Shown here in pieces: positions 1 through 58,179 of a DNA stretch of 64,000 nucleotides; within the stretch, counting starts at the first letter, position 1, and each line of letters opens with the position of its first letter. Location of the stretch: contig NMRA01000595.1 in the NCBI GenBank assembly GCA_002633005.1, positions 194,225-258,224 of the forward strand. Direction: 5' to 3'. Source of the DNA: Phoronis australis (Eukaryota; Animalia; Phoronida). The notes below the pieces were generated by a model. It was not told the DNA's origin. It saw only the letters and a list, made by a program, of their open reading frames with translations, and made no database searches. Made by a program: the position numbers and the translations under genes.

Positions 1-1346
1 GGTTATAGCCTAACACTTCTTTCAAAGCTGCGCCGCCCATGTTGTATCAAGAATATTCGACTGACAACTCGCGTACTTCCTTGTGACAATTTGGGCATGC
101 ACTATACATGTATATTACAATAACTCTATTTGGTCCAAATCGGTTGTTAAGAAAACCACTGTTTTTAATCACTTTTCCAAAGTGCAACCCTTCTAAAAAG
201 CCCTTCGCAACACAAATTTAGACATCATAAACTTGGCGAGACATTACGAAATCTATACTACCTTTTTGAAATCCTTAAAAAGTCAAGTAAACACCAAGGC
301 TTCTATACTGCAGCCAACTTAAAAATGACAAAAACAGTGGCAGCGTACACAACACCTGATGTACCGGCAGTCGACGTTGCCATACGAGGTTAGATGCAGA
401 TACATGTAGGTCGAGCCCAACATCTGTGAATTAATAGGATGGCCAAGATGCTTAACGTTGAATAATCCCGTGTCATCTGCGTTGATTGTAGCTCAAAATG
501 CTATGGTTATACGCTGCGTAGTTTGAAACCTCTTTTACCTTTACCCATGGTCAAAGTGGTACATGTAGGAAGCGAGCGACACCGTGGTGAGCGCACTGTA
601 TTCATGAAGAAGTCTAACGGGGAGGGGGTAAATTACATGTACATTGTACACTGTATGTCATCTGCGGAGGGGTGTTTAAGGTGGATATTGTGAAAGATCG
701 CTGCACTAAACTACCTCCATTACGATATGCATTCTATGACACCAAAATGTCTATCAATGAAAAATGTCGGCAATAAGCAAACAAGTAGGCATCCAGGACA
801 TGCTTTTTCGTAGATTTTTCGAATCAACGTCCAAACGTGCATCTCTTTGGCCAAATAACACCTTTCAAAACATTTGCAAAAGACCGGCCGGTACACGAAA
901 TGTAGAAAAGGTACAAATTGATTTCTGCTATGAGGAATCATTTGTTACACTGCTTAAAGATTGTATTTACAGTGTACATTGTTTTGAGTTAAACAGACTT
1001 TGCAATCTACTGCATAGCAGTTAGATTAAATTGAAATTATAACAAAAATGTGAGGGACAAAAATAGTCACTAAACATGTGTATAGACCACGTAACAGCAC
1101 CACATTTTTATGGAAATTTTTCTTTCTAACATTTTATTAAATATCGCACTGTAAACCTTCGCGCACATAGAAGCGATGAATAATACACATCCCTGTTTTA
1201 TATTCGAATCACTAAATGTATAACCACGAATTTCAGGAACATATCTAATGGAGACGTGACAGCAAAACCCTAGTCTCCCACAAATTATACTACATGTTTC
1301 AGTACTTTGTGTATGTTGTGTTTTAATTCAAAAGTGGTTCGATTAC

Positions 1347-1442
1347 CTTATCATCCACCTTTGCTCCATTGTCCAACAATAACTCCACCATCTTGACGTC
1401 ATCTCTTCGAATTGACCAGTGTAGAGGGGAATTATTGAGCCA
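1347..1442 (-). CDS. Ankyrin-repeat exon, 96 nt (WLNNSPLHWSIRRDDVKMVELLLDNGAKVDDK)
   Basis: ttcacag acceptor and gtaatc donor, phase 0/0; SPLH and MVELLLDNGA motifs. Confidence 0.88.
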
Positions 1443-4400
1443 CTGTGAATTAAAATAGTACCTATGCTTACTGATCGGCCATTGTACGTAAATTTACAAC
1501 TGTTCCTATGCCAAGTGTATCAATACCCGTTTTAAGATACAAGGGCTGAATTTCAACCAATTTTCAACGTCTGCTTTGTAAACCTCACACAACATACATG
1601 ACGCGTTAACAAATTGACAAATACGTGATGGTAAATATCACGAAGACAGCTGTTGACAGTAAATACAAACATCAATCTTTCGAAAATTCAATATATTACG
1701 TCTTCGTACTCAAGTCACTCTTGACTGACACATATAAAGGGCAGAGAGTCTTCAGAAAAACACTTTCGTCTTATTTTCACTTTCGACGGTATTTTTCCAT
1801 TGTACAGCGTCTTTTTGGTGAAACATTTCATGACCGTACATGTATCTAGAATATTCCCCTGACATATCTTACGTCGTTGTGAATATTTGCCCCGCGGTGA
1901 CAATTTAGGCCTGCACTATACAGTGCAATAACTCTATTTGGTCCAAAAACGGTTATTAAGAAAACCCTCTATTAAAAATGTGCAATCTTTCTAAAAAACA
2001 CTTCGCAACACAATTTCAGACATCATTTGAACTAAACACGTACTATTCATTGATAAACCATCGTTTATGTAAAAAGAAACTCAAGTTGTCTCAATGATAA
2101 ATGACACACATGTAGTATAGTTTGGCTTAATTAATGAATGACTTAGCATTGTTCGGTAGAATCAAAACACTTAATACCCCACACGGATAGTGTTCGTCGC
2201 CAGTCAAATTTTTGACATTATCATCCAATAGGTGTAAAGCCTTACTCAATAAGCATAATTATTATAAAAATTCACGGGACGGCGCAAATATTTTTGTTTG
2301 GCAAACATTTCGAAAATGATATTGCCGATCGATCTTCCTTATTACCTTATTAGGGTCTGCTCCATGCTCTATCAGCAGCTGCACCATTTCGCGGTTGCCT
2401 GTTACCACTGTATACTCCAGTGCGCGGAGTCCTAACCGTCGAATAACCTGAAGAATCAATAACAAAACACAACTACAAAGTGTAAGGACATGCAATGCAA
2501 ATAAACCAGCGTAGTGAAAAGGTAATAAAAAATACAAAGGAAATTTATTGATAATTCAATTGCAACGTTTTACAACAACAAACAATTGCAGCTTAAAATG
2601 CAAATAAACTCGAAATGCACAACTTGCAGGCCTAAATGAACTGGAAATCCTTACCCTGCCTACATTTGTCTTGAAAGAGATGAACAGGGAAAAAACAAAA
2701 GCATCAAAAGCGTTGGCTTTCTGCTGTACCGGCGTGCTTTGCACTCCTAAATAACACACACCTTTCTGTTTGATTGCATTGTGTGTATACTCAGTTGCTA
2801 GGTTACCATCACGTCCACAGGTTTGTTTAGTGCCTTTTTTCATCCACCAGTCCTTATATGGCGATTGATACAGATAATTTTGTTTTATATGGATTCTGAA
2901 AGTGTTGTTATAAATGAAAGCGATGTGCGACAGACGACGTTTGCGTAAACAAACACGTAATGTACTATTTTGATCTATAGTTTTTAATCATCATAGTACT
3001 CAAAAAGTGCCCATCTATCATATGATGACAAAACGCCCCAGTGGCAACAATCGAAGGTAGACATAACGTACTGAACTACGCGTTTGTCCGCTGAAATACG
3101 CGCAAAACTATTACAAGCAAGCAGCCGCTTATAGAACGGAGGTGGGGTGGCACAGGACCACGGCCCAGGGCATCCATATTAGGAAGTATCCAATCGATAA
3201 ATAAGCTTTTGTAAGTTGTGATTCATTTTTAGTTAACGTGTATAAAGTTTCTTTTTTATGTTTCATTTTTTGCTTGTGTTAGTACTTATGGGTGCATGCA
3301 TTTGAGTAGAGAAGGCCGCCCAATAAAAAATCGGCCTGGGCATCACCAAACCTCTGCACGCTATTGCTAGGATCAACTCTCAAACGTTGCCGTTGGCATC
3401 CACTAATTGTTTGAGGAAGTGGATGAGGTCTTCGTAGTTTGACGTAAACTCTTCAACAATAACGGATTAAATATTACATCTTCTATTTCGTGTTGTAAAG
3501 ACCCGTTTGTATTTTGGGCGGCGCGTCATCGGAGACTGGGAGGGGAGGAGACGGCGCCAGAGCCAACACTTTTTCAGTGCTGCACCACCCATGGTATATG
3601 GGGGGCTGGGAGTTATAGCCCAACTCTTTTTTCAAAGCGGCGCGTCTCAAGTTGTATCAAGAATATTCGACTGACAACTCACTCGAGACCTTGTGGCAAT
3701 TTGGGCATGCACTTGTATACTGTATTACAATAATTCTATTTGGTCGAAATCGGTTGTTAAGAAAACCACTGTTTTTAATCACTTTTCAAAAGTGCAACCC
3801 TTCTAAAAAGCCCTTCGCAACACAAATTTAGACATCATAAACTTGGCGAGACATTACGAAATCTATACTACTTTTTTGAAATCCTTAAAAAGTCAAGCAA
3901 ACACCAAGGCTTCTATACTGCAGCCAACTTATAAATGATAAAAACAGTGGCAGCGTACACAACACCTGATGTACCGGCAGTCGACGTTGCCATCCGAGGT
4001 TAGATGCAGATACATGTAGGTCGAGCCCAACATCTGTGAGTTAATAAGATGGCCAAGATGCTTAACGATGAATAATCCTTTGTCATCTGCGTTGATTGTA
4101 GCTCAAAACGCGATGACAAAAACTATTTGATATTCATTAAATAAAACAACAAACCAGATTTTCTTTAAGAATGACGATGTTCTTAGCAACATCCTAACTG
4201 AATATTGGAGGACATTGCTAAGGATTTGAATGAGTGACAAGCTAAAGCTTTGCTAGCGCAAAATTTTTCTTTTTGGAACGTGTCCTTAATTATTTCGGCA
4301 ATTCATGCATCAGTGAAAGGTTCAACCTTTTACGTCAACTTTTGATCTAAACGAAATAGAAAAACGACTAATCCGAAAGGGAGAGGCGAAATTAATAAAG

Positions 4401-7400
4401 ATTCATTACGATCCAAACTGGTATTGTGCTGCTGCGGGAAAGAATTGGTATCAAACAGGAAAATGGGAACACGCAAACTGGGCTGAGTTTCGTAGATGCA
4501 AGAATCTCTCGAAGGAAACGAGTGTCATCACATGCTTCAAGTGTAAAACGTAGCGATATTTTGCGAAGTCTTCCATGATCTTCAAAATGCTATTTCTCTA
4601 AGTTCACGCTTCTACGGACCGCAAAACACACGTGATACAACTGGCTTAGACAGGAGTGTTCAACAGCGGGACTACTTATAAATAATATTAGGAAACAATT
4701 TCGATAAAACGGCATTGTTTTAAAGAGTAATAAATAATGGACAGGATTTCTAAATAACGCTACACAGCTGATAGGGAATAATGAGAGAAGCAATCAACAA
4801 AGCTCTTACTAGTCAATAAGACTCCTTCAAAAATCACGTGATTGCTGCAACTCTAGATATGTAGTGTGAATAAGAAGCTGTGGCCGAACAAACTTTTGTC
4901 GTGACCTGTGTCACGTGAATCTAACTATTTAAAAATGATCTGATTATAAGAGAAAAAATTCGTATGTGGTTATAGGTCACCGACTTTGGAACTGCATGTG
5001 ATATCGGATTTCATATTATCATCCATTGGCCCGTTCAATTGTTTGCAAAGTTGAAATTCACTTCTCCAAATGTTTAGGTAGCTTTTGAACTCTGCTAGTT
5101 AAAATAAACAGCTGCTGATTGGCTAGAGGGTCCCAAGTGATTCAAAGGTGATGCACGTGAAGTTAATCGCTACACTTACTTTTGCCATGAATATAATAAA
5201 AGATTCGGCTTGTTGTCTTACATTCTTGTGTCTGATTGCGTGAATCAGTTCTAATTCAGATCCATTCAATCTTTCTTTGTTCAGTGTTGTCGCAGTTTCG
5301 CAATAAGGGCCAATTCGCTAATCAGTTTACAGGCCTGCTCTGTTTAAGTGAATAATTTATGCTAAATTATTGCCGACGCCATCTGCTAAGCCCAATATAT
5401 TTAAAATAATAAAAATCCATTCATTGAAGAATTAAAGAATTTTGATGAAAGACAACAATTCCTTTCTTTATGAGTACTGCTGTTTTAATAATACATCATT
5501 TGAACTAAACAAATATTTATTGATAAATCTTCATTTATGTTTAAAGAAACCCAAGTATGATGACTGAAGTTGTCTCAAAGACAAATGACACACATGTAGT
5601 ATAATTTGGCTTAAATAATGAATGACTTAGCATTGTTCGTTAGAATCAAAACACTTAATACCCCACACGAATAGTGCTCGTCGTCAGTCAAATTTTTGAC
5701 ATTATCATCCAAAATGTGTAAAGCCTAACTGAATAAGTATAATTAAAATAAAAATTCACGGGACGGCGCAAAAATTTTTGTTTAGCAAACATTTCGAAAA
5801 TGAAATTGCAAATCGATCTTCTTTATTACCTGATTAGGGTCTGCTCCACGCTCTAACAGCACCTGCACCGTTTCGAGTTTGCCTCTGGATATTGCAAACT
5901 CCAGTACATTTTGCCCAAACAGCCGAGAAACCTAAAGAATCAAAAACAAAACACATTTTTAAAAGTGTAAGGACATGCAATGCAAATAAACCAGCGTATT
6001 AAAAAGGTAATAAAAAGTACAAAGCAAATTTATCTATAATTCAATTGCAACGTTTTACATCAACAAACAATTGCAGCTTAAAATGCAAATAAACACGAAA
6101 TGCACAACTTTCAGGCCTAAATGAACTGGAAAACCTTACCCTGCCTACATTTGTCTTGAAAGAGATGAACAGGGAAAAAACAAAAGCATCAAAAGCGTTG
6201 GCTTTCTGCTGGACCGGCGTGCTTTGCTCTCCTAAATAACACAAACCTTTCTGTTTGATTGCATTGTGTGTATACTCAGTTGCTAGGTTACCATCACGTC
6301 CACAGGTTTGTATAGTACCTTTTTTCATCCACCAGTCCTTATATGGCGATTAATACAGATAATTTTGTTTTACATGGATTCTGACAGTGTTGTAATAAAT
6401 GAAAGCGATGTGCGACAGACGACGTTTGCGGAAACAGACACGTAATGTACTATTTTGATCTATAGTTTTTAATCATCATAGTACTCAAAAAGTGCCCATC
6501 TATCATATGATGACAAAACGGCCCAGTGACAACAATCGAAGGTAGACATAACGTACTGAACTACGCGTTTGTCCGCTGAAATACGCGCAAAACTATTACA
6601 AGCAAGCAGCAGCTTACAGAACGGAGGTGGGGTGGCACAGGACCACGGCCCAGGGCATCCATATTAGGAAGTATCCAATCGATAAATAAGCTTTTGTAAG
6701 TTGTGATTCATTTTTAGTTATCGTGTATAAAGTTTCTTTTTTATGTTTCATTTTTTGCTTGTGTTAGTACTTAAGGGTGCATGCATTTGAGTAGAGAAGG
6801 CCGCCTAATAAAAAATCGGCCTGGGCATCACCAAACCTCTGCACGTTATTGCTAGGATAAACTCTCAAACGTTGGCGTTGGCATCCACTAATTGTTTGAG
6901 GAAGTGGATGAGGTCTTCGTAGTTTGACGTAAACTCTTCAGCAATAACGGATTAAATATTACATCTTCTATTTCGTGTTGTAAAGACCCGTTTGTATTTT
7001 GGGCGGCACAGCATAGGAGACTGGGAGGGGAGGGGACGGCGCCAGAGCCAACACTTTTTCAGTGCTGCACCACCCATGGTATGTGGGGGGCTGTGGGTTA
7101 TAGCCTAACTCTTTTTTCAAAGCTGCGCCGCCCATGTTGTATCAAGAATATTCTACTGACAACTCACTCGAGACCTTGTGGCAATTTGGGCATGCACTAT
7201 ACATGTATATTATAATAACTCTATTTGGTCCAAATCGGTGATTAAGAAGACCACTGTTTTTAATCACTTTTCAAAAGTGCAACCCTTCTAAAAAGCCCTT
7301 CGCAACACAAATTTAGACATCATAAACTTGGCGAGACATTACGAAATCTATACTACTTTTTTGAAATCCTTAAAAAGTCAAGCAAACACCAAGACTTCTA

Positions 7401-10400
7401 TACTGCAGCCAACTTAAAAGTGATAAAAACAGTGGCAGCGTACACAACACCTGATGTACCGGCAGTCGACGTTGCCATACGAGGTTAGATGCAGATACAT
7501 GTAGGTCGAGCCCAACATCTGTGAGTTAATAAGATGGCCAAGATGCTTAACGATGAATAATCCTTTGCCATCTGCGTTGATTGTAGCTCAAAACGCGATG
7601 ACAAAAACTTTTTGATATTCATTAAATAAAACAACAAACCAGATTTTCTTTAAGAATGACGATGTTCTTAGTAACATCCTAACTGATTATTGGAGGACAT
7701 TATTGAAGATTTGAATGAGTGACTAACTAAAGCTTCACTAGGGCTAAGTTATCTTTTTGGAACGTGTCCTTAATTATTTCGGCAATTGATGCATCAGTGA
7801 AAGGTTCAACATTTTAGGTCAACTTTTGACCTAAACAAAATAAAAAAAACGACTAATCCGAAAGGGAGAGGCGAAATTAATAAAGATTCATTAAGATCGA
7901 AACTGGTATTGTGCTGCTGCGGGACTGAATTTGTATCAAACAGGAAAATGGGAACACACAAAACTGAGCTGAGTTTCCTAGATGCAAGAATCTCTCGAAG
8001 GAAACGCGTGTCATCACATGCTTCAAGTGTAAAACGTAGCGATATTTTGCGAAGTCTTCCATAATCTTCAGTTGCTATTTCTCGAAGTTCTCGCTTCTAC
8101 GGAACGCACAACACACGAGATACAACTGGCTTAGCCAGGAGTGTTCAACAGCGGGACTACTTATAAATAATATTAGGAAACAATTTCGATAAAACGGCTT
8201 TGTTTTAAAGAGTAATAAAAAGTGGACAGGATTTCTAAATATCGCTACACCGCTGATAGGGTATAATGAGAGAAGCAATCAACAAAGCTCTTACTAGTCA
8301 ATAAGGCTCCTTCAAAAATCACGTGACTGCTGCAACTCTAGATATGTAGTGTGAGTAAGAAGCTGCAGCCGAACAAACTTTTGTCGAGACCTGTGTCACG
8401 TGAATCTAACTATTCAAAAATGATCTGATTATAAGAGAACAAAAATTCGTATATGGTTATAGGTCACCGACTTTGGAACTGCATGTGATATCGGATTTCA
8501 TATTATCATCCATTGGCCCGTTCAATTGTTTGCAAAGTTGAAATTCACTTCTCCAAATGTTTAAGTAGCTTTTGAACTCTGCTAGTTAAAATAAACAGCT
8601 GCTGATTGGCTAGAGGGTCCCAAGTGATTCAAAGGTGATGCACGTGAAGTTAATCGCTACACTAACCATTGCCATGAATATAATAAAAGATTCGGCTTGT
8701 TGTCTTACATTCTTGTGTCTGATTGCGTGAATCAGTTCTAATTCAGATCCATTCAATCTTTCTTTGTTCAGTGTTGTCGCAGTTTCGCAATAAGGGCCAA
8801 TTCACTAATCAGTTTACAGGCCTGCTCTGTTTAAGTGAATAATTTATGCTAAATTATTGCCGACGCCATCTGCTAAGCCCAATATATTTAAAATAATAAA
8901 AATCCATTCATTGAAGAATTAAAGAATTTTGATGAAAGACAACAATTCCTTTCTTTATGAGTACTGCTGTTTTAATAATACATCATTTGAACTAAACAAA
9001 TATTTATTGATAAATCTTCATTTATGTTTAAAGAAACCCAAGTATGATGACTGAAGTTGTCTCAAAGACAAATGACACACATGTAGTATAATTTGGCTTA
9101 AATAATGAATGACTTAGCATTGTTCGTTAGAATCAAAACACTTAATACCCCACACGAATAGTGCTCGTCGTCAGTCAAATTTTTGACATTATCATCCAAA
9201 ATGTGTAAAGCCTAACTGAATAAGTATAATTAAAATAAAAATTCACGGGACGGCGCAAAAATTTTTGTTTAGCAAACATTTCGAAAATGAAATTGCAAAT
9301 CGATCTTCTTTATTACCTGATTAGGGTCTGCTCCACGCTCTGACAGCACCGGCACCGCTTCGAGTTTGCCTCTGGATATTCGATACTCCAGTACATCTTG
9401 CCCAAACAGCCGAGAAATCTAAAGAATTAATAACAAAACACAACTACAAAAGTTTAAGGACATGCAATTCAAATAAACCAGCGTCATAAAAGGTAATAAA
9501 AAGTACAAAGCAAATTTATTTATAATTCAATTGCAACGTTTTACATCAACAAACAATTGCAGCTTAAAATGCAAATAAACTCGAAATGCACAACTTGCAG
9601 GCCTAAATGAACTGGAAAACCTTACCCTGCCTACATTTGTCTTGAAAGAGATGAACAGGGAAAAAACAAAAGCATCAAAAGCGTTGGCTTTCTGCTGGAC
9701 CGGCGTGCTTTGCTCTCCTAAATAACACAAACCTTTCTGTTTGATTGCATGGTGTGTATACTCAGTTGCTAGGTTACCATCACGTCCACAGGTTTGTATA
9801 GTACCTTTTTTCATCCACCAGTCCTTATATGGCGATTAATACAGATAATTTTGTTTTATATGGATTCTGAAAGTGTTGTATTAAATGAAAGCGATGTGCG
9901 ACAGACGACGTTTGCGTAAACAAACACGTAATGTACTATTTTGATCTATAGTTTTTAATCATCATAGTACTCAAAAAGTGCTCATCTATCATATGATGAC
10001 AAAACGCCCCAGTGGCAACAATCGAAGGTAGACATAACGTACTGAACTACGCGTTTGTTCACTGAAATACGCGCAAAACTATTACAAGCAAGCAGCCGCT
10101 TACAGAACGGAGGTGGGGTGGCACAGGACCACGGCCCAGGGCATCCATATTAGGAAGTATCCAATCGATAAATAAGCTTTTGTAAGTTGTGATTCATTTT
10201 TAGTTAACGTGTATAAAGTTTCTTTTTATGTTTCATTTTTTGCTGGTGTTAGTACTTAAGGGTGCATGCATTTGAGTAGAGAAGGCCGCCCAATAAAAAA
10301 TCGCCCTGGGCATCACCAAACCTCTGCACGTTATTGCTAGGATAAACTCTCAAACGTTGCCGTTGGCATCCACTAATTGTTTGATGAAGTGGATGAGGTC

Positions 10401-13400
10401 TTCGCAGTTTGACGTAAACTCTTCAGCAACAACGGATTAAATATTACATCTTCTATTTCGTGTTGTAAAGACCCGTTTGTATTTTGGGCGGCGCAGCATA
10501 GGAGACTGGGAGGGGAGGGGACGGCGCAAGATCCAACACTTTTTCAGTGCTGCACCACCCATGGTATATGGGGGGCTGGGGGTTATAGACTAACTCTTTT
10601 TTCAAAGCGGCGCGTCTCATGTTGTATCAAGAATATTCTACTGACAAGTCACGTGAGACCTTGTGACAATTTGGGCATGCACTATACATGTATATTATAA
10701 TAACTCTATTTGGTCCAAATCGGTCATTAAGAAAACCACTGTTTTTAATCACTTTTCAAAAGTGCAACCCTTCTAAAAAGCCCTTTGCAACACAAATTTA
10801 GACATCAAAAACTTGGCGAGACATTACGAAATCTATACTACTTTTTTGAAATCCTTAAAAAGTCAAGCAAACGCGAAGACTTCTATACTGCAGCCAACTT
10901 AAAAGTGATAAAAACATTGGCAGCGTACACAACACCTAATGTACCGGCAGTCGACGTTGCCATACGAGGTTAGATGCAGATACATGTAGGTCGAGCCCAA
11001 CATCTGTGAGTTAATAAGATGGCCAAGATGCTTAACGATGAATAATCCTTTGCCATCTGCGTTGATTGTAGCTCAAAACGCGATGACAAAAACTATTTGA
11101 TATTCATTAAATAAAACAACAAACCAGATTTTCTTTAAGAATGACGATGTTCTTAGTAACATACTAACTGATTATTGGAGGACATTATTGAAGATTTGAA
11201 TGAGTGACTAACTAAAGCTTCACTAGGGCTAAGTTTTCTTTTTGGAACGTGACCTTAATTATTTCGGCAATTTATGCATCAGTGAAAGGTTCAACATTTT
11301 AGGTCAACTTTTGACCTAAACAAAATAAAAAAAACGACTAATCCGAAAGGGAGTGGCGAAATTAATAAAGATTCATTAAGATAGAAACTGGTATTGTGCT
11401 GCTGCGGGACTGAATTTGTATCAAACAGGAAAATGGGAACACACAAAACTGAGCTGAGTTTCCTAGATGCAAGAATCTCTCGAAGGAAACGCGTGTCATC
11501 ACATGCTTCAAGTATAAAACGTAGCGATATTTTGCGAAGTCTTCCATAATCTTCAGTTGCTATTTCTCTAAGTTCTCGCTTCTACGTGATACAACTGGCT
11601 TAGCCAGGAGTGTTCAACAGCGGGACTACTTATAAATAATATTAGGAAACAATTTCGATAAAACGGCTTTGTTTTAAAGAGTAGTAAAAAGTGGACAGGA
11701 TTTCTAAATAACGCTACCCCGCTGATAGGGTATAATGAGAGAAGCAATCAACAAAGCTCTTACTAGTCAATAAGGCTCCTTCAAAAATAACGTGACTGCT
11801 GCAACTCTAGATATGTAGTGTGAGTAAGAAGCTGCGGCCGAACAAACTTTTGTCGAGACCTGTGTCACGTGAATCTAACTATCCAAAAATGATCTGACTA
11901 TAGGAGAACAAAAATTCATATATGGTTATAGGTCACCGACTTTGGAACTGCATGTGATATCGGATTTCATATTATCATCCATTGGCCCGTTCAATTGTTT
12001 GCAAAGTTGAAATTCACTTCTCCAAATGTTTAGGTAGCTTTTGAACTCTGCTAGTTAAAATAAACAGCTGCTGATTGGCTAGAGGGTCCCAAGTGATTCA
12101 AATGTGATGCACGTGAAGTTAATCGCTACACTAACCATTGCCATGAATATAATAAAAGATTCGGCTTGTTGTCTTACATTCTTGTATCTCATTGCGTGAA
12201 TCAGTTCTAATTCAGATCCATTCAATCTTTCTTTGTTCAGTGTTGTTGCAGTTTCGCAATAAGGGCCAATTCACTAATCAGTTTACAGGCCTACTCCGTT
12301 TAAGTGAATAATTTATGCTAAATTATTGCCGGCGCCATCTGCGAAGCCCAATACATTTAAAATAATAAAAATCCATTCATTGCAGAATTATGAATTTTGA
12401 TGAAAGACAACAATTCCTTTCTTTATGAGTACTGCTGTTTTAATAATACATTATTTGAACTAAACAAATATTTATTTATAAATCGTCATTTATGTTTAAA
12501 GGCGAAGGCAACCTTTTTCCATGTCATTTTGAGCTAAAATAAGGTTGGTTGGTTATCCTAGACATATTTTCTACTTAATTACAGCTTTTCGTAATTTATT
12601 AATTACTCGTCCGCTACTCCGGAAGTGACGTTTTAGGAGGCAAGCATTTCGCGCCAATTTCTTTTCATATAGTCTGATTGTGAGAGCTGCCGAGTCAGTC
12701 ATTGTTCTACCTCGCTTGTGTTAAGTTCCGTCGTCGTTTGCTTTCATTTACTAGTCAGACAACATGCCACACTGTTGCTACGTACCAGGATGTACTATTT
12801 ATCGGCTCACGCGCGCTTTGGTAGTACCTTTCCATCGCTTTCCGATGGATGACACACTTCGCCGTACTTGGCTCGTTCGTGTGAAGAACGCAGCGTTACC
12901 CGTCCACGCAACGTACATGTACAAAGCAGTGGAGAATTCCGTGTGTGTGGCAAGCACTTTCTGCCGTCCGATTACGAAAGGGATCTGTACGCTGAACTGA
13001 TGAAGGTCCCTGTGAAACAACTTCTGAAGAAAGATGCCATTCCGTCTGTGTTGATTCCCGGCAGTGCCCCGTCGCCACCCCCGAGAAGTGAGTTTTTGAA
13101 ACGAGAAGCCTCGCGAGCTGTGGCCAGTACAGTGACTGGAGCCAGTGGAGGCACTTTATCTACTGTCACCCGTGCCTCCGAACGTACCCCAGAGCGTGCA
13201 ATTCCTGGAACCAGTAGTGATTCGCACTGTGCTGTTTTCTCCAGCCCAGAGCCTCTAAGCAGCCCTGCAGCGATATCGAGTAGTGGGAGTGATTACAGGC
13301 CCAGTTCGACACCCAGTGAAGAGGACAGTTCGTCGTCCAGTGAACAGATCGGTGAGCCAAACTTTGATAAGTTTATTGTGGACTTGTCTAAAGTGTTGGA

Positions 13401-15809
13401 GCTATTTAGAAGGTGCCAGGTGTGTGGCGAGGGAGTCACACGACACAATGTAAGCAGTTTGGGTGCTCAGGTCACCATCCAGTGGGAGTGTGTCACGGGA
13501 CACTCTGGCAAGTGGGACAGTTGTTCCTCTGTCCGTGGTATGCCGGAGGTCCACTTAACCATGTCCAGTGGTGTGCTCTTCACTGGAAACACGTTTCAGT
13601 CGGTGAAGACAATGATGGACTTTGGAAAAGTCAAGTTTTTTTTCGAAAACAACATTCAACAACATTCAGAATTCCTATTTAATACCAGTTGTCAATGACG
13701 CATACATGTCACAACATCTCGAGTTGGTGGCGGAATTCATGGAGAAGGAGAACTTGTCTGACTCACCAGGGCGGTCCGCCAAGTATACCACATACACTCT
13801 AATGGAGGAAGAGACCAAAAAGATAATTGATGTGGAACTCGGAACAGCACAAGCATTCAATTGAGGTAGGCATAACAACGCACACAGTGCATTTGCACCA
13901 AGATGTGTCACCACGTCTGTCTTCAGTAGCCGCCTCGTTTCTCTCAACAGCTGCCTGTGCCTGTGTGTACTCTGCCTCGTTGTACTCGGGCTCAAACATG
14001 TACCCACCCACTGAATGTCCGTGAAAAAATTCCTCGTCACCACTGCTGTGAACAAGGTCTCCGTCACTCACACTACTGTCACTGTGATACGGGTCACCGA
14101 CTCCAGCCATTTTCAGCTTACAACACACTAAACAATCCCTAAATCCAACGCAGTTGAGTTCTCTACTAACCTATCTTGCCGCAGAATACTCGCCGATGGA
14201 AAGTGGTGGCGACAATTGGTGAAAAATAGCACAAAACAAAAGTAGAATAGAACAGATTCGCACAGTAAGCTCAACGCAAAACCAAGTGGCGGGAAGCGCT
14301 TGCCTCCTAAAACGTCACTTCCGGAAAAGCGGACGAGTAATTAATAAAATTACGAAAAGCTGTAATTAAGTGAAAAATATGTCTAGGATAACCAACCAAC
14401 CTTATTTTAGCTCAAAATGAAATGGAAAAAGGTTGCCTTCGCCTTTAAAGAAACTCAAGTATGATGACTTAAGTTATCTCAATGATGAATGACACACATA
14501 TAGTATAATTTGGCTTAAATAATGAATGACTTAGCATTGTTTGGTAGAATCAAAACACTTAATACCCCACACGAATAGTGTTCGTCGTCAGTCAAATTTT
14601 TGACATTATCATCCAATAGGTGTAAAGCCTTACTCAATAAGCATAATTATTATAAAAATTCACTGGCCGGCGCAAATATTTTTGTTTGGCAAACATTTCG
14701 AAAATGATATTGCAGATCGATCTTCTTTATTACCTTATTAGGGTCTGCTCCTGGCTCAAACAGCAGCTTCAACAGTTCGCGTTCGCGGAAAGACCCTTCA
14801 ATCACATGTGCGATGGTTTTTATCGGTCGATGAACCTGAAGAATCAAGAACAAAACACAACTACAAAACTGTAAGGACATGCAATGCAAATAAACCAGCG
14901 TAGTAAAAAGGTAATGAAAAAGTACAAAGGAAATTTATTTATAATTCAATTGCAACATTTTACATCAACAGACAATTGCAGCTTAACATGCAAATAAACT
15001 CGAAATGCACAACTTGCAGGCCTAAATGAACTGGAAATCCTTACCCTGCCTACATTTGTCTTGAAATAGATGAACAGCTAAAAAACAAAAGCATCAAAAG
15101 CGTTGGCTTTCTACTGGACCGGCGTGCTTTGCACTCCTAAATAGCACACACCTTTCTGTTTGATTGCATTGTGTGTATATTCAGTTGCTAGGTTACAATC
15201 ACGTCCACAGTTTTGTTTAGTGGTTGTTTTATCCACCAGTCCTTATATGGCGATTGATACAGATAATTTTGTTTTACATGGATTCTGACAGTGTTGTAAT
15301 AAATGAAAGCGATGTGCGACTGACGACGTTTGCGGAAACAGACACGTAAGGTACTATTTTGATCTATAGTTTTTAATCATCATAGTAATACCCAAAATGT
15401 GCTCATCTATCATATGACAAAACGTCCCAGTGGCAACAATCCAAGAGCCACATAATGTATTCAACGGAATGTTTGCCACTGTTTTGCGCGCAAAACAATT
15501 ACTAGCAAGCAGTAGCTTAGAGAATGGGGGCACGGAACCACGGCTCCGGGCATCCCTATTAGAGAACATCCACTCGATAAATAAACTTTTTGAAAATGCG
15601 ATTCGGCGCCAGAGCAGACATTTATTCAGTTCTGCACCGCCCAAGGTATATGGGGGCTGGGTGAGGGGAAAGTCAGGCTATAGCACAACACTTTTGCAGT
15701 TGTACGCCGCCCATGTTGTAAGACTTGTTTACCAAAGATCACGAAATTTCGTTTTGATTTTATGCAAAAGTATACATGGCGTTAATTCTCGGATGCTGTA
15801 AACATTCCA

Positions 15810-15905: not shown

Positions 15906-18900
15906 ATAGCCATTATCTTCTGCCAGTCTTTCAGAATCTACTCTCAGTACAGTTGTGTTGTATAATTTCCTTCATTTGCACCTTCAAGTTTCTTTGACAC
16001 TACGTCAGTACCCTTTTGTGGATTTTTGGCGTTGGACACCTCTTACATCGAGCCTGTTGCTCGTATGATGTCGGAGAGATCGTGCACTATTCTGATATAC
16101 TGTCTTCTATTGATCAAAGCTTTTTGATAGACCTAGGGCTACTTGCTTCAAAATACTGTGAACTAACGGCCGTGGTCACGTTGGGGGTTTTCTGCAAGAA
16201 AACACAGCTAAACGTCTGGTTTTGAGTAACAGGAAGTGTATTGAAAGTACATATGTTGAACGGAAACCCATTGTTTTGTTGCATCCTCACCGTAGCATTG
16301 AAATGAATTTTGAATGGCGTGGGGTGGAATTTCTGCAAATGAGTAGTGGGGGCATGGTACTGTTTACCCCACGTGACAACATTGGTGGGCTGACAATGCC
16401 AACGTACAGTGTACGAGCACACCGTGTGAACTAAGTCGATAGATGTATTCCTCGGAGCCTTTACTATCCAATATGGAAAAACGAAGAAGACACTAGGAAA
16501 ACAAAGTTGCGCTCCTAGCATATGCTTTCAAGGGATTTTAGAGTTAACATCTAGGTGAACACATTTGCAACGAGATCTGACAGTGGCAAAGAGTGGTAAG
16601 ACGGTTCCTTTCATTACACGCTGCGTGGTTTCAGAGCCTCTATTAGGTTTACCCGTCTACATACATGCAGGAAGAGGGAGGGGGGGGGGGNNNNNGGTGA
16701 GCGCCTCACCATCCACACAGTAACCCAAATCGACAGAGTTAATTTTTACTTGGGTTGGTGTCATACACCAACATTCGCCACTCAAGACTGTCGCAAGTGA
16801 TGACGGTCGTTATGTTTTCCCATATTACACAGGCGAATAAAAGCGATGGATTATAGAGGACATTTTTCGATACAAAGGCGTAAAAATGTTCTTCCTATCA
16901 ACTTTGTAAGTTATCCACAATGTCTTCATATATACTAATATGACAATGGCCCAGGCAGCAACTATCCAACAATTCTGCTATGACTGTACCTCTCTCCTAA
17001 TGGAATATGATGTTAAGCGTCAGAAAACGATTCCGAACTTGGGCATAATAGAATGAGTACAACAACTGGGTGAGTTAAATTGCGCAGACAACAACAAGGA
17101 ATGACTTCCCAGACTCTCAAAAATCAACTGAATACATGGGTTTGCGAAACTTGGCACATCTAGATCCCAAATTTAAATTTTGGCAATGAACCATTGACTG
17201 GGTGGTGGGCATTTGAAATGACCAAAATAGCTACATTTTCAGATCTGTAAAATCGGCCCAATCAAACTTTAAACTGCACTAATATTTGAAAAGGAGATAT
17301 TATAATGTTAACTTTTCACATTTTAGACTTTAAACCAGTAAACTGAAGTCATCTAAAAGTGGGAAATTCTATGAACTTTCATGTTCACACGACCATTCGA
17401 CCTGTTCAATGATACTTAAATAAAATTAAAATCAGTAATTCACGACCCTGGTTTATAACTTAGTCCATGAATTTACGGCCACATCTAAGTTTCACTAATA
17501 GGTATGCGTGTAAAAGGTATGGAAACAACGAAATAGTTCTTCATATTATCATTCCCACATGAATAATTAGCACTGTGCTTAAACTGAATAATGATGCCGA
17601 TTAAAACATCATCTTGATTTACTCCATAGTCGAACAAATGCTTCACCACATCGACGTGGCCATTCATTAAAGTCCTTCTCTCAAACTGTCCATGTGGTTC
17701 CAGTATCCGAAAATACTTACTACATAAATTCTTATTTTCGACACCCTTTCTTTATATTCTTTTCGCCTTTCTTGCCAAAAGCGATTTTTTAACAGTATTT
17801 GACCCTTCTCTATGAGCATATGATTACCGGTTGTCATCGGTTATTTCCGTACCCACATTTCCGGCTCATCAGTTCAGGAACTTGTCCTGAACGCCGCCAT
17901 TTTTTCCTTGTAACTGAATGTGCTATGGCTTGCTCGAAAAGTCTTTATTATTTCGTTTTATTAGTAATATATCGTGATTCGTTTGCATATGTAGTGTATT
18001 TATAGTTTGTAGTTAGTGGTCGTTGAATTTTTGGAATGTTACGCGTACTTAGTATGTTAAAATAGCATTGGTGTTTAGTTCCTTACGTAGGCCGGTCGAA
18101 CCTAGGAACCAATATGGGTCGAACCAATTTTTTTCGGTTTTATTTTTTCCTCGTTTTGAAAAAGTACTTTGCTATCATCGGAAAGGTAGTACATTGTACT
18201 CAGTAAAAATCGAAAAAGTATCAAAATCGGGGAAAGCACTGTAAAGTTATTGCAAGTTTTGTGGCGAAATTTGGGTCACTTTGTTGGATCGCGTCGGCCA
18301 TATTGGAGGACAGCGGGATAAGTTACGAGTTTAAAACTTTGTGTAAATTGTTTTCGCCAACAAATTACGGTGAAATTTAGTTAGACATATCTTTACTTAC
18401 TATTCTGCACGATTTAACAGTGTTCACCAAATTTCAGCCTCGCAGTTGTTACTCATTAAGTGATATGTGCTCAAAATTCCCGTTGGACAACATGGCGACT
18501 TTTGCTGAACTGAAAGGTATGTTCAATCGGCTACTTTGTAATTTGTGAAGATTTAACGTTGATACATTTTGACAAACGTTGCTACAAAAAAGAAACTTTG
18601 TTCAATTTTCGTGTTTTTTGTGCAAAAATATAAGATATATTCGAATTATTTCAGGTTATCAAGTCAACAATTTGAACAATCTTAATTTGAGAAATAAGCT
18701 ATGTTGGATTGTGAGGCTTCAAGCCTCTAATTCTTGTTCCTTGCAACTTCATATTTTTTTAAGCGATGCTTGTCAAATTCTGGTGAAAGGAAACACTATT
18801 CCGTCACCATGGTAATAGTTACATGTATGTCCACTTTCATATCATGGAAACTGTTGCTGTTGTGTTGGACTTGTCATACTTAAAGATAGTAAAAGATGGA

Positions 18901-21900
18901 CATTCTCAAAAATTCCAGCCCCCCATTCTTTTAGGCTTGGTGCGCAAATACAAAGTCTGGGAAAATCTCTATTGAAAGCCAACAACTTTGCACAGTTCGT
19001 ACCCAAGTTCTAAATAAACCTCGTTTGAGCGAGCGCTGTGGCCAGGGACCAGTTAGCAGCAACTATCCAACAATTCTGCTATGACTGTACCTCTCTCCTA
19101 ATGGAATTTGAAGGGAAACTTTAATGAGAGTGAGAAAATGATGTCAGAATTTGCGCATGTTAGACTGATTACAACAACAGGGTGAGTCTCATTGTGTAGG
19201 AAATAATTCTCAGACTCTTAAATATGAACTGAATACAAGGGTGTGACAAACTTGGCACATCTAGATCCCAAATTAGTTTAAATTTCGTCAATGAACCATG
19301 GTCTGGTTGGAAGGCATTGGAAATAACCAAATAGCTACATTTTCAGATCTGTAAAATTGGCCCAATCAAATTTTTAGTATTAGAAAAAGAGACATCTCAA
19401 TGTCAATTTTATATTTTTTAGAGTTTCAACCAGTAAACTGAAGTCATTTAAATGTGGGGGAATTCTATGAACTTTCGAGTTCACGCGACCATTTGACCTG
19501 TTCAATGATACTAAAATAAAAGGGAGATGAATAATTTACGTCCCTGGTTTATAAACTTGGCCATGAATTTACGACCACAGCTAATTTTAACTCACAGTTA
19601 TGCATGCAAAAGGTATATATTACAACGAAATTGTTCTAAATATAATTCCCACATGAGTAATTAGCACTGTGCTTAATTTGAACAATGATGCCGATTAAAA
19701 CATCATTCACATTTAGTCCATAGTCCAATAATAGGTTCACCACATCGATGTGATCATTCGTTGAGGTGTAGAGAGGTGGTGCTCTTTTCAGTGACTGGGA
19801 TTTGTTGTCTTCGTAGACAAATGCTAACGCATCATGGCAAACTTCACGTGACAATCAACGAATAAATATAGATTATTACATGGCGAAGTCGTTATCCTCC
19901 GTTATCTAGAGCCCGAGTGGATTTTGGAGAAATATCGCCCGAGGGGCGTTAGCCCCGAGGGTGATAATTCTCCAAAATCCACTCGGGCTCTAGATAACGG
20001 GGGATAACGGCTGAGAACATGTAATAATCTATTTATACCACATACTAAACGAGAAACATTGCAATGAATCGATTTACCTTTTCTGACTCTCCACGGCTTT
20101 GTAACTACTTTCTATGTCAGAGGCCCGGGGTCGGAGGTCGTGACCTTTTAAGAAAAGCCCGGCTATTTTTGTCAAATAATGCTTTTACTCAAAACCAATT
20201 GAAAACTTAAATATTATAGAAATAAATTGAATTTATAAATTAAGGTTTACCAACTATTATAGCTTAAAACACGTTTTTTTCACGCTAAGCTTCGATCGGG
20301 AAATTATCGTCTGCTAAAGTAGGTTACCACTGGTAACTGAACCTAATTCTCAAGTCAAAGATCCTGACGAGACGATACCCGCATTCAAACTAGAGATCGG
20401 TGATTTACAAGTAAGAGGACATGAGAGAAAAATTTCACCGAATTAAGATATCATTTTTATGGAAATTATGTGTCTTATTTTTCGTAGCGTATAAGTACAG
20501 TACAATGTGGTTTGTTGAACGTGCGATTATTGCGCGTGCTCATTTAAGTATTCTATTTTCAATCTTGATGACGTCAGTCGCTGCGTGGTGTAGTGGTAAA
20601 GCCGGCTCTGTACTGGGAGTAACTAAGAGACCGGACAAACATTTTAAAGTCTGTACAGGTGACTGTGGATGTCACGGTGACGGTGGTTTAGAAACAATCG
20701 AGAGTGGCCTGTAAACGCTTAGGGGCTCTAACATTCTTTCATTGTTCATACTTTCACAAAGTGGAAGTTTAAAAGCGGCTCATCAACTGACTTTTCGCCC
20801 CCAGACGTTAGGTTTCAAAATGGTTACCATTCATTGTGTTCATTCCTTCTCGCTTCTCTGTGGCAGAAATATTTCTTTATAATCATCGATTAATTTGGGA
20901 GGCTCCGCCAAGCCCCCTTTGGACGCCTATGAAAATGCATTATGCATCTAGGGAAGATTGACCTGGTAATTATTAAATTAAATGTGTATTTCTCACCTCA
21001 AACATTAGAGCGGAATAGAAATGCTGATTTGCAGCTTTATAGACATTATTTTTAAAAGTTCACTGAATGGTTTGAATGACCTGACTAGTGTATATAACTG
21101 TCCGAGCAGTTACTTTTTAAATTGAGCGGAAGCCTATAATGTAGCTACAAGTAACAACTGACTTGACACATTCAGATATATTTAACGTAAAACAAGGGAA
21201 TCGTGTTGTGATTCACAGGACAGGGCTGGTGTTCCCACGTTGCTGCACTCATCTAGCAAATAGGGAACTATAAGATGTTGAAGTTGACTAAAGTATAAGA
21301 GATATCCGTCTAAACGCCAAGCTCACAAAGTTTGCACGTTACACCTCGCACTCATGATATTACGCCCCAGTCCACCCATGCAGTTTTATTTATGAAGCTG
21401 TCACTGAGTAAAAAGACTGACCAGTGTGTGCGATCAACTCTGCATAATAGCATCAACATCGACTTCCCAGAAATTCCACTCACTAAAAACTTGTCGACAC
21501 ATTATGACTGCATGGCCCAGGAAGTCATCTCCTTCAAGCCGTGTCAGATGACTTTGACTGCTTTTTACCTGTCGACACAACATTTGGCATAATACTGTCA
21601 GGCTGACCACTCTTTCCCACCAATTTCCAGCACCACCAAGTCATGGGACAGTTCAAACTGTGCCACTGGATGTTGAGTTCCCTGTCACCCTTCTAGGCAC
21701 CCAGTCTTCTGTGGCAATGTGAGCGTGAGCTATCCCCAGATGAAAAATTGTCTCTCAGTGCATGGTCAAAATCTGAGATCGTGCGCACAAGGCACGGTCA
21801 AAATCTTGAAGTAAGTTATTATTCATTAGCGGCACGAGGAGTAAGTCACAGTTTTAGTTTCGGCAAGTCTCACTAACTTGAAAGTGCCACCTCTTCTGCA

Positions 21901-26011: not shown

Positions 26012-27235
26012 CTGTAACAATAAAGACATGATTCATCAAAGAACACACGCTACAATTTTCAATTTCTATATGAAGCTTGCGTGTCCTTACTACGCTAGTC
26101 TATTTAAGCAAGGCTAGTGATCTTTGTACAGTACACGAAATATTTTTTACTTTTATAGTTACTTCAGTGACAATTCAAGGTAAGAGTCAAGGCTTACTAT
26201 TCTGTGCATTAAGAAGACACAACTACATGCAAGTTCTCTAAATCTCTGTCACAAATATTGTGTTTTTCTATTACTTTACTCATACTATGAGTTCCTCGTT
26301 TACTTATGTTATGTAGTATTTGAGCTCATATTTCAATGAAAATAAAGAGCCAACTATTTACGACTTTATTTTGCACTGAAATACAGTAAAATCAATTTTG
26401 AGTACTCGAATTTTAATCCAAATGGATTAACTTTGTGTTATTGTGAATTAGTGATGGCCTGCACAGCTGTATCCCCAGGCCTTTTTCCTCAAAACGTCTT
26501 TCAATCCAGTCAGGTCGCCACTTCACGTGCAAAGTAAAATGAAATAGAACCTAAAAACTGCGCAACGTTGTGACATCACAAGATACCATGGGACCCGCAA
26601 ATGTTCATCAACTTCGCAGCCCACTATTGTGAATTGATGGCTCGTCTCTTGCGGTCCTGATTTCGATAGACTTAACTAGGAGATGGTTGGTGAAACTTAC
26701 CCACCAGCGTAACCAAAGCCTGATAGGTCGGAATGACGTTTTTAGGACTACCATGGAAGTTTGCACGCTCAAAATTTTGGTCGGCGTGCCCTCGCGACAG
26801 CTTAATTGGCATGCAGTGTCATCACTTCTCTTTAAAATTTTGCCACTAAATTTGCCACCCCTTCAAATCTCAGTAATTGCCACCGGGTCTCATTGCCTTA
26901 ACAATCAGTGGAGCACCACTGATAAGATAAGTGAGTTCCGTCCGAGGCAGCACCTCGGTAGATGGGCTGGGCACCGACGCCGGGAGAGAGCGGTGCACTC
27001 GAAAATTGTCAAGATTGGCACAAACATTTCACCAACAAGGAGACGTGAAGCGACGCAAAGTTGGTGGTGACCATGGAGAGGAACACTGTTGTCTTCCACC
27101 CGGGGTGGCGATAGAGAGCTTCTGATCACCCTTTGTTAGCTTGGTAAAAATTATTCAGACTCATCCGAGCAAAAATGGGGAGTGTGCCCTTGTTTATTTG
27201 CCTTCATTTCACATCGCCAAGTAGGGAAAGTCAGG

Positions 27236-34277: not shown

Positions 34278-34359
34278 GATCAAGATTGAGTCGAATACTG
34301 GATTAAAAACTTATTAATTTTTGTAAGTTTTTAATCCAGTATTCGGCTCATTCTTGATC
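34278..34359. repeat. Inverted-repeat hairpin with ~35-bp arms
   Basis: gatcaagattgagtcgaatactggattaaaaactta / taagtttttaatccagtattcggctcattcttgatc. Confidence 0.85.
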
Positions 34360-51963: not shown

Positions 51964-52393
51964 CATGGGCGGCGTACTAAAGGGGACTGGGGAGCTATAG
52001 TCCCCCACTTTTTTCAGTGCTGTGCCGCCCATGGTCTAGGGACGGTGCACCACAGGGGGGCTGATAGGCTATAGCCCCCACTTCCTTTAGTGCTGCGCCG
52101 CCCATGGTCTAGGGACAGTGCACCAAAGGGGGGCTGATAGGCTATTAGTGCTGCGCCGCCCATGGTCTAGGGACGGTGCACCACAGGGGGGGGGCTGATA
52201 GGCTATATCCCCACTTCCTTTAGTGCTGCGCCGCCCATGGTCTAGGGACGGTGCACCACAGGGGGAGGCTGATAGGCTATAGCCCCCACTTCCTTTAGTG
52301 CTGCGCCGCCCATGGTCTAGGGACGGCGAACCACAGGGGGGGGGGGGCTGATAGGCTATAGCCCCCACTTCCTTTAGTGCTGCGCCGCCCATG
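51964..52393. repeat. GC-rich minisatellite (~61-bp unit, about 6 copies) enclosed by CATGGGCGGCG / CGCCGCCCATG inverted ends (MITE-derived)
   Basis: Unit ctatagcccccacttcctttagtgctgcgccgcccatggtctagggacggtgcaccacag(g)nctgatagg. Confidence 0.9.
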
Positions 52394-58065: not shown

Positions 58066-58179
58066 GGAGTTTTAGTCACGCTATCAGCTAATACATGTAT
58101 GCATGAAAAGCGAGGAACTGCATTTACATTTAACATCAAAGAAAATTAATGCGGGAGGTTTTAATTTATTTATTTAGGT

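What the first reader, a model, noticed from the sequence alone, without database searches (positions are those of the whole stretch)
2346..14835. Hypervariable single-ankyrin cassette exons inside near-identical 3.5-kb tandem units: candidate diversifying repeat-receptor system
Seen: four tandem units each carry one 102-nt, phase-0 ankyrin exon with intact splice sites, and conservation is inverted, with introns far more similar than exons. Intron 2556-2843 versus 6041-6328 differs at about 9 of 288 nt. By hand count, exon A vs B differs at 27/102 nt (18 amino-acid changes, only 2 purely silent codons) and A vs D at 34/102 nt (20 codons, all non-synonymous, no stops or indels). In A vs B, 20 of the 27 changes fall in codons 2-16, while GADPN(K/Q) is nearly invariant. 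Established: the beta-turn and first helix form the ankyrin binding surface randomised in DARPins. Repeat-per-exon diversification is known for brown-algal ROCO-LRR and NB-ARC-TPR genes, and repeat shuffling for fungal NLRs; Dscam and lamprey VLRs use variable cassettes. Inference: this is a natural DARPin-like recognition protein (immunity or allorecognition) whose repeats diversify by positive selection while homogenised introns act as recombination substrates.
Basis: partly seen in the sequence, partly recalled or inferred. Interest (0 to 1): 0.88.

Follow-up and report, generated by a model that had tools for sequence, protein, structure and literature searches.

The report
Fast-diversifying one-exon-per-repeat ankyrin gene
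An expressed animal gene builds an ankyrin protein from one repeat per exon, and these exons differ far more than the near-identical introns around them, mostly by amino-acid changes, which likely reflects selection for new binding surfaces in what is predicted to be a natural antibody-like recognition protein whose target is unknown.

Summary
Four 102-nt phase-0 ankyrin exons lie in 3.5-kb units whose introns differ by 2.6-5.2%, against 8-44% for exons. RNA reads (three runs, one study) show the exons spliced one after another, with junction counts of similar size; the gene runs on past the window's left edge through a further cassette to a terminal ankyrin exon. No exon skipping was listed, though tables were truncated. 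Codon models give dN/dS about 5-6.5 (p 2.5e-4 to 8e-4; 0 of 200 neutral simulations reached it); stricter pairwise tests are significant for A-D only and borderline for B-C. Variation sits in codons 2-21, the hairpin/first-helix half, but also hits framework residues. No targeted-mutator signature. Best reading: a small ankyrin-only binding protein whose germline repeats diversify under selection while gene conversion homogenises introns. Immune function is inferred, not shown; Dscam- or VLR-like combinatorial use is not supported. Closest precedents: Podospora NLR ankyrin repeats and Ectocarpus ROCO/TPR exons. My searches found no animal ankyrin equivalent, and the scan's index held no matching earlier finding.

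The parts
26701..26754 (-). predicted first coding exon (ATG, 18 codons, GTAAGT donor, phase 0)
   Evidence: sequence only; not covered by either RNA lay
25934..26011 (-). predicted exon 2, 26-aa N-capping ankyrin repeat
   Evidence: AG/GTAAGT, phase 0; best stretch aligns to the N-cap of designed ankyrins, top E 1.2e-4; no Pfam hit; not RNA-tested
19699..19812 (-). degenerate ankyrin-like exon relic 1 (poor donor) in a 0.7-kb duplicated segment; approximate limits
   Evidence: Pfam Ank E 0.023; 16955-17668 ~ 19056-19762 at 79%; not RNA-tested
17599..17712 (-). degenerate ankyrin-like exon relic 2; approximate limits
   Evidence: homologous to relic 1; no Pfam hit; not RNA-tested
14734..14835 (-). 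cassette exon D (34 aa, most divergent)
   Evidence: junction 14734/9418 CT..AC in 33, 13, 30 reads
14444..15604 (.). partial fourth unit (86-88% to the others)
12495..14449 (.). DNA transposon (172-bp terminal inverted repeats, TTTAAA at both ends, THAP-like and P2RX7_C-like ORFs) inserted in the D-C intron
   Evidence: very high read depth
9317..9418 (-). cassette exon C (recent duplicate of B; carries framework changes)
8980..12501 (.). tandem unit 3
5830..5931 (-). cassette exon B
   Evidence: Pfam Ank above cut-off; 30 letters of B seen as a loose end in 13 reads of X5
5493..8979 (.). tandem unit 2
2346..2447 (-). cassette exon A
   Evidence: Pfam Ank above cut-off; RNA junctions on both sides
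2020..5492 (.). tandem unit 1
   Evidence: Pfam Ank E 3e-7; junction 2346/1442 CT..AC in 56, 40, 66 reads
1..505 (.). copy of the unit intron (92-94% to 3612-4115 and sisters); predicts a further cassette exon (Z) about 1.2 kb left of the window
   Evidence: E0-to-new-cassette joints in 17, 13, 18 reads

Best explanation
This is an expressed gene whose one-repeat exons are spliced in series into what is predicted to be a small ankyrin-only binding protein, and its repeats likely diversify in the germline under selection for new binding surfaces while gene conversion or unequal crossing over likely keeps the introns alike. Shown: serial junctions D to C/B, C to B, B to A, A to E0, E0 to a further cassette Z, and a terminal E0 copy that has lost its donor and reads to a stop. 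Inferred: N-cap exons 1-2, giving about nine repeats and about 285 aa. Shown: amino-acid divergence 5-6 times synonymous divergence, concentrated in codons 2-21; synonymous divergence (0.02-0.14) about equal to that of the immediate flanks; a divergence peak centred on the exon; mosaic units. Inferred: units are duplicated by unequal exchange in the 3.4-kb introns; conversion erases intron differences, but tracts crossing the exon are selected against, and replacement changes on the concave face are favoured. Inferred and untested: the protein is intracellular and binds a fast-evolving foreign or selfish-element protein as a sensor, decoy or inhibitor.
For: Exon/intron contrast p 9e-13 for A/B. 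NG86 omega above 1 in 6 of 6 pairs (1.67-4.75, and B/C with no silent change). M0 omega 4.8-5.2, p 4e-4 to 8e-4; M8 vs M8a p 1e-7 to 3e-6. With separate rates for the two halves omega 6.55, p 2.5e-4; still p 0.01 on the two worse trees; 0 of 200 neutral simulations with gamma rate variation reached the observed value. All 7 codons that map to randomised or binding positions (2, 4, 5, 7, 12, 15, 16) have posterior at least 0.86, against 7 of the other 27 (F3x4; mapping and PMC4308713, PMC8415598). Site patterns AD|BC 17 vs ABC|D 7 near the exon, 6 vs 50 far from it, p 2e-7. RNA junctions in 3 of 3 runs on the expected strand. No stop or frameshift in any of the four exons, where random placement gives a stop in 25-72% of trials per pair. 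Two further short cassettes seen only in run X7 differ at 5 nt, all changing the amino acid (my reading of table 5c; 5 and 3 reads).
Against: Only four exons (34 codons) were analysed, and recombination and multi-base changes can inflate site models. A null that keeps local difference density is significant for A-D (p 0.01-0.02), borderline for B-C (0.04 and 0.10), and not for A-B or B-D (0.25-0.41); NG86 Fisher is significant in 1 of 6 pairs. Models find no class with omega below 1. Changes also hit framework positions (codons 8, 13, 14, 21, 26; a proline in helix 2 of C), and D has lost its Pfam match, which fits decay; amino-acid diversity at binding positions is not significantly higher than elsewhere (P 0.06; 0.31 within codons 2-16). 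No ligand, immune induction, population polymorphism or effector domain is shown (no convincing Pfam domain among 117 minus-strand ORFs of 15900-36400).
Confidence: 0.6

Rival explanations
1. The repeats took on fixed, position-specific roles in binding an ordinary cellular partner after one burst of adaptive change; selection now only shields each exon from conversion (a divergence peak as in the red/green opsins), with no ongoing arms race and no immune role.
For: Peak of divergence with raised flanks is what this model predicts (PMC3924837). The extra cassette's loose-end consensus is the same in 3 of 3 RNA runs, and 30 letters of B match the window exactly in X5.
Against: Old retained divergence would normally raise synonymous differences; they stay at flank level while dN is 5-6 times higher. 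The youngest pair B/C already differs at 8 nt, none silent. The three runs are from one study and may not be independent animals.
Confidence: 0.2
2. A combinatorial receptor: exons are used alternatively (Dscam-like, or skipped as in brown-algal ROCO transcripts) or reshuffled somatically through the homologous introns.
For: All exons are phase 0, so any subset stays in frame. D-to-C/B junction reads (76 in total) exceed C-to-B (49) and B-to-A (49), which leaves room for skipping of C. Run X7 has cassette variants not listed for X5/X6. Joint and loose-end tables were truncated (90 and 1049 rows not shown; 103 loose-end rows).
Against: Every serial junction is present at similar counts in 3 of 3 runs; cassette-to-cassette joints exclude mutually exclusive use; no skipping junction is listed; loose-end agreement 0.96-1.0; substitution spectrum like the introns'.
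Confidence: 0.1
3. Relaxed or decaying repeats: extra units are nearly neutral, and the exon differences arise from patchy conversion from diverged donor copies elsewhere in the genome, not from selection on this protein.
For: Framework substitutions in C and D; runs of 4-10 adjacent differences in exons; B/C upstream flank as diverged as the exon; more cassette copies exist (9 contigs over position 2338 in DNA run X1).
Against: Neutral exons should be homogenised like introns; omega significantly above 1; no stops or indels in four exons; splice sites intact and used.
Confidence: 0.08
4. Assembly artefact: alleles or collapsed copies laid in tandem.
For: B/C intron divergence (2.6%) is close to the differences between the window and DNA-run contigs (for example 7/261, 9/336, 4/411). 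The window has N gaps; no long-read support was available.
Against: Reads join two B/C-type exons directly (15, 12, 22 reads) and join D to C/B and B/C to A in the assembled order.
Confidence: 0.02

Closest known systems
[quoted passage not shown]
   Same: Ankyrin repeats under concerted evolution with positively selected sites on the hairpin and inner helix.
   Different: Those are PNP_UDP-NACHT-ANK proteins with repeats over 85% identical in protein and shown repeat-number polymorphism. Here repeats are intron-separated, mostly 24-47% identical in protein (B/C 79%), homogenisation is seen in introns, no NTPase or effector domain was found in the gene, and polymorphism is untested.
Ectocarpus ROCO-LRR and NB-ARC-TPR genes (PMC3341825, PMC11378527; passages read)
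   Same: One repeat per equal-length exon, exon duplication, positive selection on the concave face, inactivated exon relics in introns.
   Different: LRR/TPR rather than ankyrin; joined to a GTPase or NB-ARC module; alternative splicing and opposite-strand spare exons reported there, not seen here; brown alga, not animal.
Hessian fly SSSGP genes (PMC2955719; abstract read)
   Same: Inverted conservation: conserved non-coding DNA and introns, diversified coding region, attributed to positive selection plus concerted homogenisation.
   Different: Whole small secreted genes in tandem, not repeats inside one protein.
Argiope MaSp2 and flagelliform silk genes (PMC9779670; passages read)
   Same: Iterated introns homogenised within a gene (mean 97.6%), delimiting repeat units.
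   Different: Their coding repeats are also homogenised; structural proteins.
Human red/green opsin divergence peak (PMC3924837; passages read)
   Same: Divergence peak at a selected exon amid converted introns.
   Different: Two genes, few selected sites, no repeat array.
Designed ankyrin repeat proteins (DARPin / ANK-N5C; PMC4308713 passages read)
   Same: N-cap plus internal repeats with conserved second helix and GAD-x-N, variable hairpin and first helix.
   Different: Cassette repeats are 34 aa, lack the TPLH motif, have Arg at the conserved hairpin Asp, and vary at framework positions too.

Membership tests
Ankyrin-repeat proteins (Pfam Ank clan) | Repeat matches Pfam Ank above the curated cut-off | tested here: met
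   A 21.9, B 23.4, E0 30.6 bits vs cut-off 21.1; C and D below or absent; exon 2 none
Ankyrin-repeat proteins (Pfam Ank clan) | Stacked repeats fold into a solenoid | not testable with these tools
Fungal-type NLR with conserved ANK repeats | NACHT/NB-ARC and effector domain in the same protein | tested here: not met
   No such Pfam domain in 117 minus-strand ORFs of at least 38 aa in 15900-36400; the 5' end is not RNA-mapped, so a distant exon is not excluded
Fungal-type NLR with conserved ANK repeats | Positive selection on hairpin/inner helix | tested here: met
   specificity to binding positions only P 0.06
Fungal-type NLR with conserved ANK repeats | Repeat-number polymorphism among individuals | not testable with these tools
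   No long reads or population set served
Ectocarpus-type exon-per-repeat receptors | One repeat per equal-phase exon | tested here: met
Ectocarpus-type exon-per-repeat receptors | Alternative splicing of repeat exons | tested here: inconclusive
   No skipping joint listed, but no lay held A, B and C together and tables were truncated
Dscam1-type mutually exclusive cassettes | Only one exon of the array per transcript | tested here: not met
   Cassette-to-cassette joints in 3 of 3 RNA runs (18, 11, 20; 15, 12, 22; 33, 13, 30 reads)
Lamprey VLR-type somatic assembly | Incomplete germline gene completed somatically from flanking cassettes | tested here: not met
   Exons have intact splice sites and are joined at them in genomic order; somatic DNA change itself not tested
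Targeted mutator systems (deaminase- or DGR-like) | Base-biased substitution spectrum in the variable region | tested here: not met
   Exon transition fraction 0.21-0.50 vs intron 0.42-0.44; all six change types present in 5 of 6 pairs

The most novel reading that the evidence does not exclude
The gene is one member of an animal family of natural DARPin-like receptors: ankyrin-only proteins whose binding faces are rebuilt by swapping single-repeat exons through homogenised introns, so that individuals (and possibly tissues) carry different repeat sets, acting as variable sensors, perhaps together with the head-to-head STAND-TPR gene next door.
Probability: 0.2. Interest if true: 0.88.

Novelty: new variant of a known kind. 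Interest (0 to 1): 0.6.

Why it matters
Repeat-domain diversification by concerted evolution plus positive selection is documented for fungal NLRs and brown-algal ROCO/TPR genes. An expressed, ankyrin-only animal protein doing this with one exon per repeat would be a natural counterpart of engineered DARPin libraries and a candidate variable recognition molecule in an animal; my paper searches listed no such case. It is also a clean intragenic example of a selection-maintained divergence peak under conversion, testable by population long-read sequencing. Without a ligand or polymorphism data it remains an evolutionary signature, not a demonstrated immune system.

Tried and rejected
No whole genome is held, so no genome-wide search for further cassettes. 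Protein searches with the exon alignment returned only generic ankyrin proteins: 898 hits of 2299 candidates and 161,643 hits at E 0.001; among the 265 proteins fetched the best per-exon identities were 50-64% over 22-30 aa, higher only on 6-17 aa stretches, so no orthologue or full-length product was found. The STAND ORF found no relative among 7991 longer candidates; the Atlas placed it among NB-ARC/STAND clusters. The LINE ORF's best hits were 40-53% identical and nearly all unnamed: animal, clade not determined. No RNA holder was listed by the run index; RNA evidence comes from raw reads of the same species label. Offsetting indels do not explain exon divergence (gapped alignment gains 0-5 points). 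A targeted mutator was rejected. The 52 X7 reads with an E0-like loose end at D's 3' end were not taken as D-to-E0 skipping: A-type 3' ends can land on D there, and agreement 0.96 fits a mix of the two E0 versions. Back-splicing was rejected for the E0-to-cassette joint because the 5' half differs from A. Summed contig depth was not used as copy number. Structure and complex prediction were not run. Earlier-finding look-ups by place, words and sequence gave nothing matching. Supplements of the papers were not read.
Full report
Observation. The self-comparison of the window shows three full units (2020-5492, 5493-8979, 8980-12501), a partial fourth (14444-15604) and a further copy of unit intron at 1-505. 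Whole-unit intron divergence is 159/3366 (A/B), 86/3366 (B/C) and 173/3347 (A/C), against 27, 8 and 31 of 102 in exons; Fisher p 9e-13, 0.006 and 3e-15. The contrast is a peak rather than a step: for A/B the 280 nt downstream and 100 nt upstream of the exon differ by 12% and 10%, and 3% farther away. For B/C the upstream 100 nt are as diverged as the exon.

The gene. Beyond the four cassettes the strand carries a second repeat type, E0 (1347-1442, Pfam Ank E 3e-7), a predicted N-cap exon (25934-26011, best aligned to the N-cap of designed ankyrins), a predicted ATG exon (26701-26754) and two degenerate ankyrin relics near 17.6 and 19.7 kb. The seven exons join in frame to 212 aa without a stop, all six introns GT-AG. 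No convincing other Pfam domain was found among 117 minus-strand ORFs between 15900 and 36400. A DNA transposon with 172-bp inverted ends lies in the D-C intron at a TTTAAA site that is empty in the other units. The genome is an animal's by its LINE (named hits: a fish and an oyster, 44-45%); the clade was not determined.

Expression and splicing. Three raw RNA runs of the same species label (three samples of one study; about 18-19% of each run read) and one DNA run were laid on 510-5490 and on 9250-14900. Exon reads have the first mate on +, i.e. minus-strand RNA in the usual stranded library. Junction reads (X5, X6, X7): D to C/B 33, 13, 30; B/C-type to a GT-starting B-type exon 15, 12, 22; a CAG-ending exon (B or C) to A 18, 11, 20; A-type to E0-type 56, 40, 66; E0-type to a cassette whose 5' half is not in the window 17, 13, 18. 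That new cassette (Z) is expected about 1.2 kb left of the window, because 1-505 copies the intron that precedes a cassette. All reads that run on past E0 carry a change that removes its donor (1346, 13/13, 31/31, 25/25) and continue to a nearby stop and about 0.8 kb of covered sequence; DNA run X1 holds both versions there (25.8 of 48.8), and 52-68% of reads over E0 carry three further changes, all amino-acid-changing. I read this as a second, terminal E0 copy: D-C-B-A-E0-Z-E0', which also explains why the cassette-to-E0 count is about double. With exons 1-2 this predicts about nine repeats and about 285 aa. Cassette-to-cassette joints rule out mutually exclusive use. No skipping joint is listed, but neither lay held A, B and C together, B and C cannot be told apart at the D junction, the tables were truncated, and exons 1-2 were not covered. 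Z's loose-end consensus is identical in all three runs (agreement 0.96-1.0); whether these are different animals is unknown. X7 alone lists more: 194 and 183 reads of a paralogue sharing only E0's second half and itself repeated (23 back-joints), and rare cassette variants (6, 5, 3 and 2 reads), two of them shortened to 26 codons by my reading. Nine DNA contigs overlap the cassette's 3' flank at 2338. A family of such genes is therefore likely.

Selection. NG86 gives omega above 1 in all six pairs but significance only for A-D (p 0.0045). My own codon-model code on the four exons gives M0 omega 4.8-5.2 (p 4e-4, 8e-4), M1a/M2a p 7e-7 and 2e-5, M8a/M8 p 1e-7 and 3e-6, with about 55% of codons at omega 11-15 and none below 1. 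Because regional rate differences can inflate site models, I refitted with separate rates for codons 2-21 and the rest: omega 6.55, p 2.5e-4 on the best tree, 2.75 and p 0.01 on the other two; 0 of 200 neutral simulations with gamma rates reached the observed statistic. Fitted dS (0.017-0.143) matches flank divergence; dN is 0.11-0.94. A stricter null that keeps differences per 9-nt block is significant for A-D (0.01-0.02), borderline for B-C and not for A-B or B-D. Positive selection is thus well supported overall but rests on 34 codons in four recombining copies.

Where the changes fall. Exon B aligns without gaps to ANK-N5C-317, whose library randomised positions 2, 3, 5, 10, 13 and 33 (PMC4308713, passages); Utges et al. 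(PMC8415598, passages) name positions 1, 3, 8, 33 and 11, 12 of their numbering as binding determinants. These map to codons 2, 4, 5, 7, 12, 15, 16, all seven with posterior at least 0.86, against 7 of the other 27. By plain amino-acid diversity the enrichment is weaker (2.86 vs 2.11, P 0.06; P 0.31 within codons 2-16), and framework codons 8, 13, 14, 21 and 26 also vary; C has a proline in helix 2 and D has no Pfam match. The 5' half as a block is variable; fine targeting is not established.

Mechanism of homogenisation. Near the exon A groups with D (17 vs 7 sites), far from it A groups with B and C (6 vs 50; p 2e-7): the units are mosaics. A divergence peak at a selected exon amid converted introns is the known signature of selection against conversion (PMC3924837, passages). 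The substitution spectrum in exons resembles that of introns, so no targeted mutator is indicated.

Comparison with what is known. It works like the ANK repeats of Podospora NLRs (concerted evolution, positive selection on hairpin and inner helix; PMC4986451, passages) and has the exon-per-repeat anatomy of Ectocarpus ROCO/TPR genes (PMC3341825, PMC11378527, passages); inverted conservation is known from Hessian fly SSSGPs (PMC2955719, abstract) and iterated homogenised introns from spider silk genes (PMC9779670, passages). It is a member of none: no NTPase or GTPase module was found, no alternative or somatic use is shown. Dscam and VLR features are recalled, not read. Eight paper searches aimed at precedents listed no animal ankyrin-only gene of this kind; subscription papers are not in that library. 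No close homologue was found.

Verdict. Real, expressed and more complete than first described; a new variant of a known kind. Best explanation (0.6): germline diversification of an ankyrin binding surface under selection, with conversion-homogenised introns, in a predicted intracellular recognition or inhibitor protein. Function against foreign proteins is inference from precedent. Interest 0.6.

Noticed in passing
window 36360-50296 (+): Multi-exon STAND (NB-ARC-like P-loop) plus TPR gene, head-to-head with the ankyrin gene, about 9.6 kb from its predicted ATG (Pfam NB-ARC E 0.0025, AAA_16 E 0.0026, TPR_12 E 1e-4, all below cut-off; Atlas NB-ARC/STAND clusters 0.92-0.96). An NLR-like neighbour; any functional pairing is speculation.
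   Followed up: partly
window 12495-14449: High-copy, transcribed DNA transposon with 172-bp terminal inverted repeats, TTTAAA target, a THAP-like ORF (+) and a P2RX7_C-like ORF (-); read depth in the tens of thousands in DNA run X2.
   Followed up: partly
window 1346-1347: Internal E0 has a GT donor, while a second copy seen in reads lacks it and serves as the last exon: a single change appears to convert a terminal exon into an internal one and lets the array grow.
   Followed up: partly
reads of run X7 on window 1352-1391 and 2344-2397: A paralogue with tandem hybrid repeats (cassette-like first half, E0-like second half) and short cassettes lacking the hairpin, listed for X7 only: tissue- or individual-specific family members.
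   Followed up: partly
window 16955-17668 and 19056-19762: Older 0.7-kb duplication (79%) each ending in an ankyrin-like relic with a poor donor.
   Followed up: partly
window 58178-62337 (+): LINE-type retrotransposon (RVT_1 E 2e-36) with internal duplications at assembly gaps (58324-58678; 59850-61398).
   Followed up: partly
window 51994-52393 and 3570-3606 (and sister units): Tandem 58-75 nt G+C-rich repeat; a related short element in each unit attracts reads from many other loci.
   Followed up: no
window 19868-20032, 34272-34365, 36797-37044: Palindromic MITE-like elements; the last has a relative at 48769-48878.
   Followed up: no
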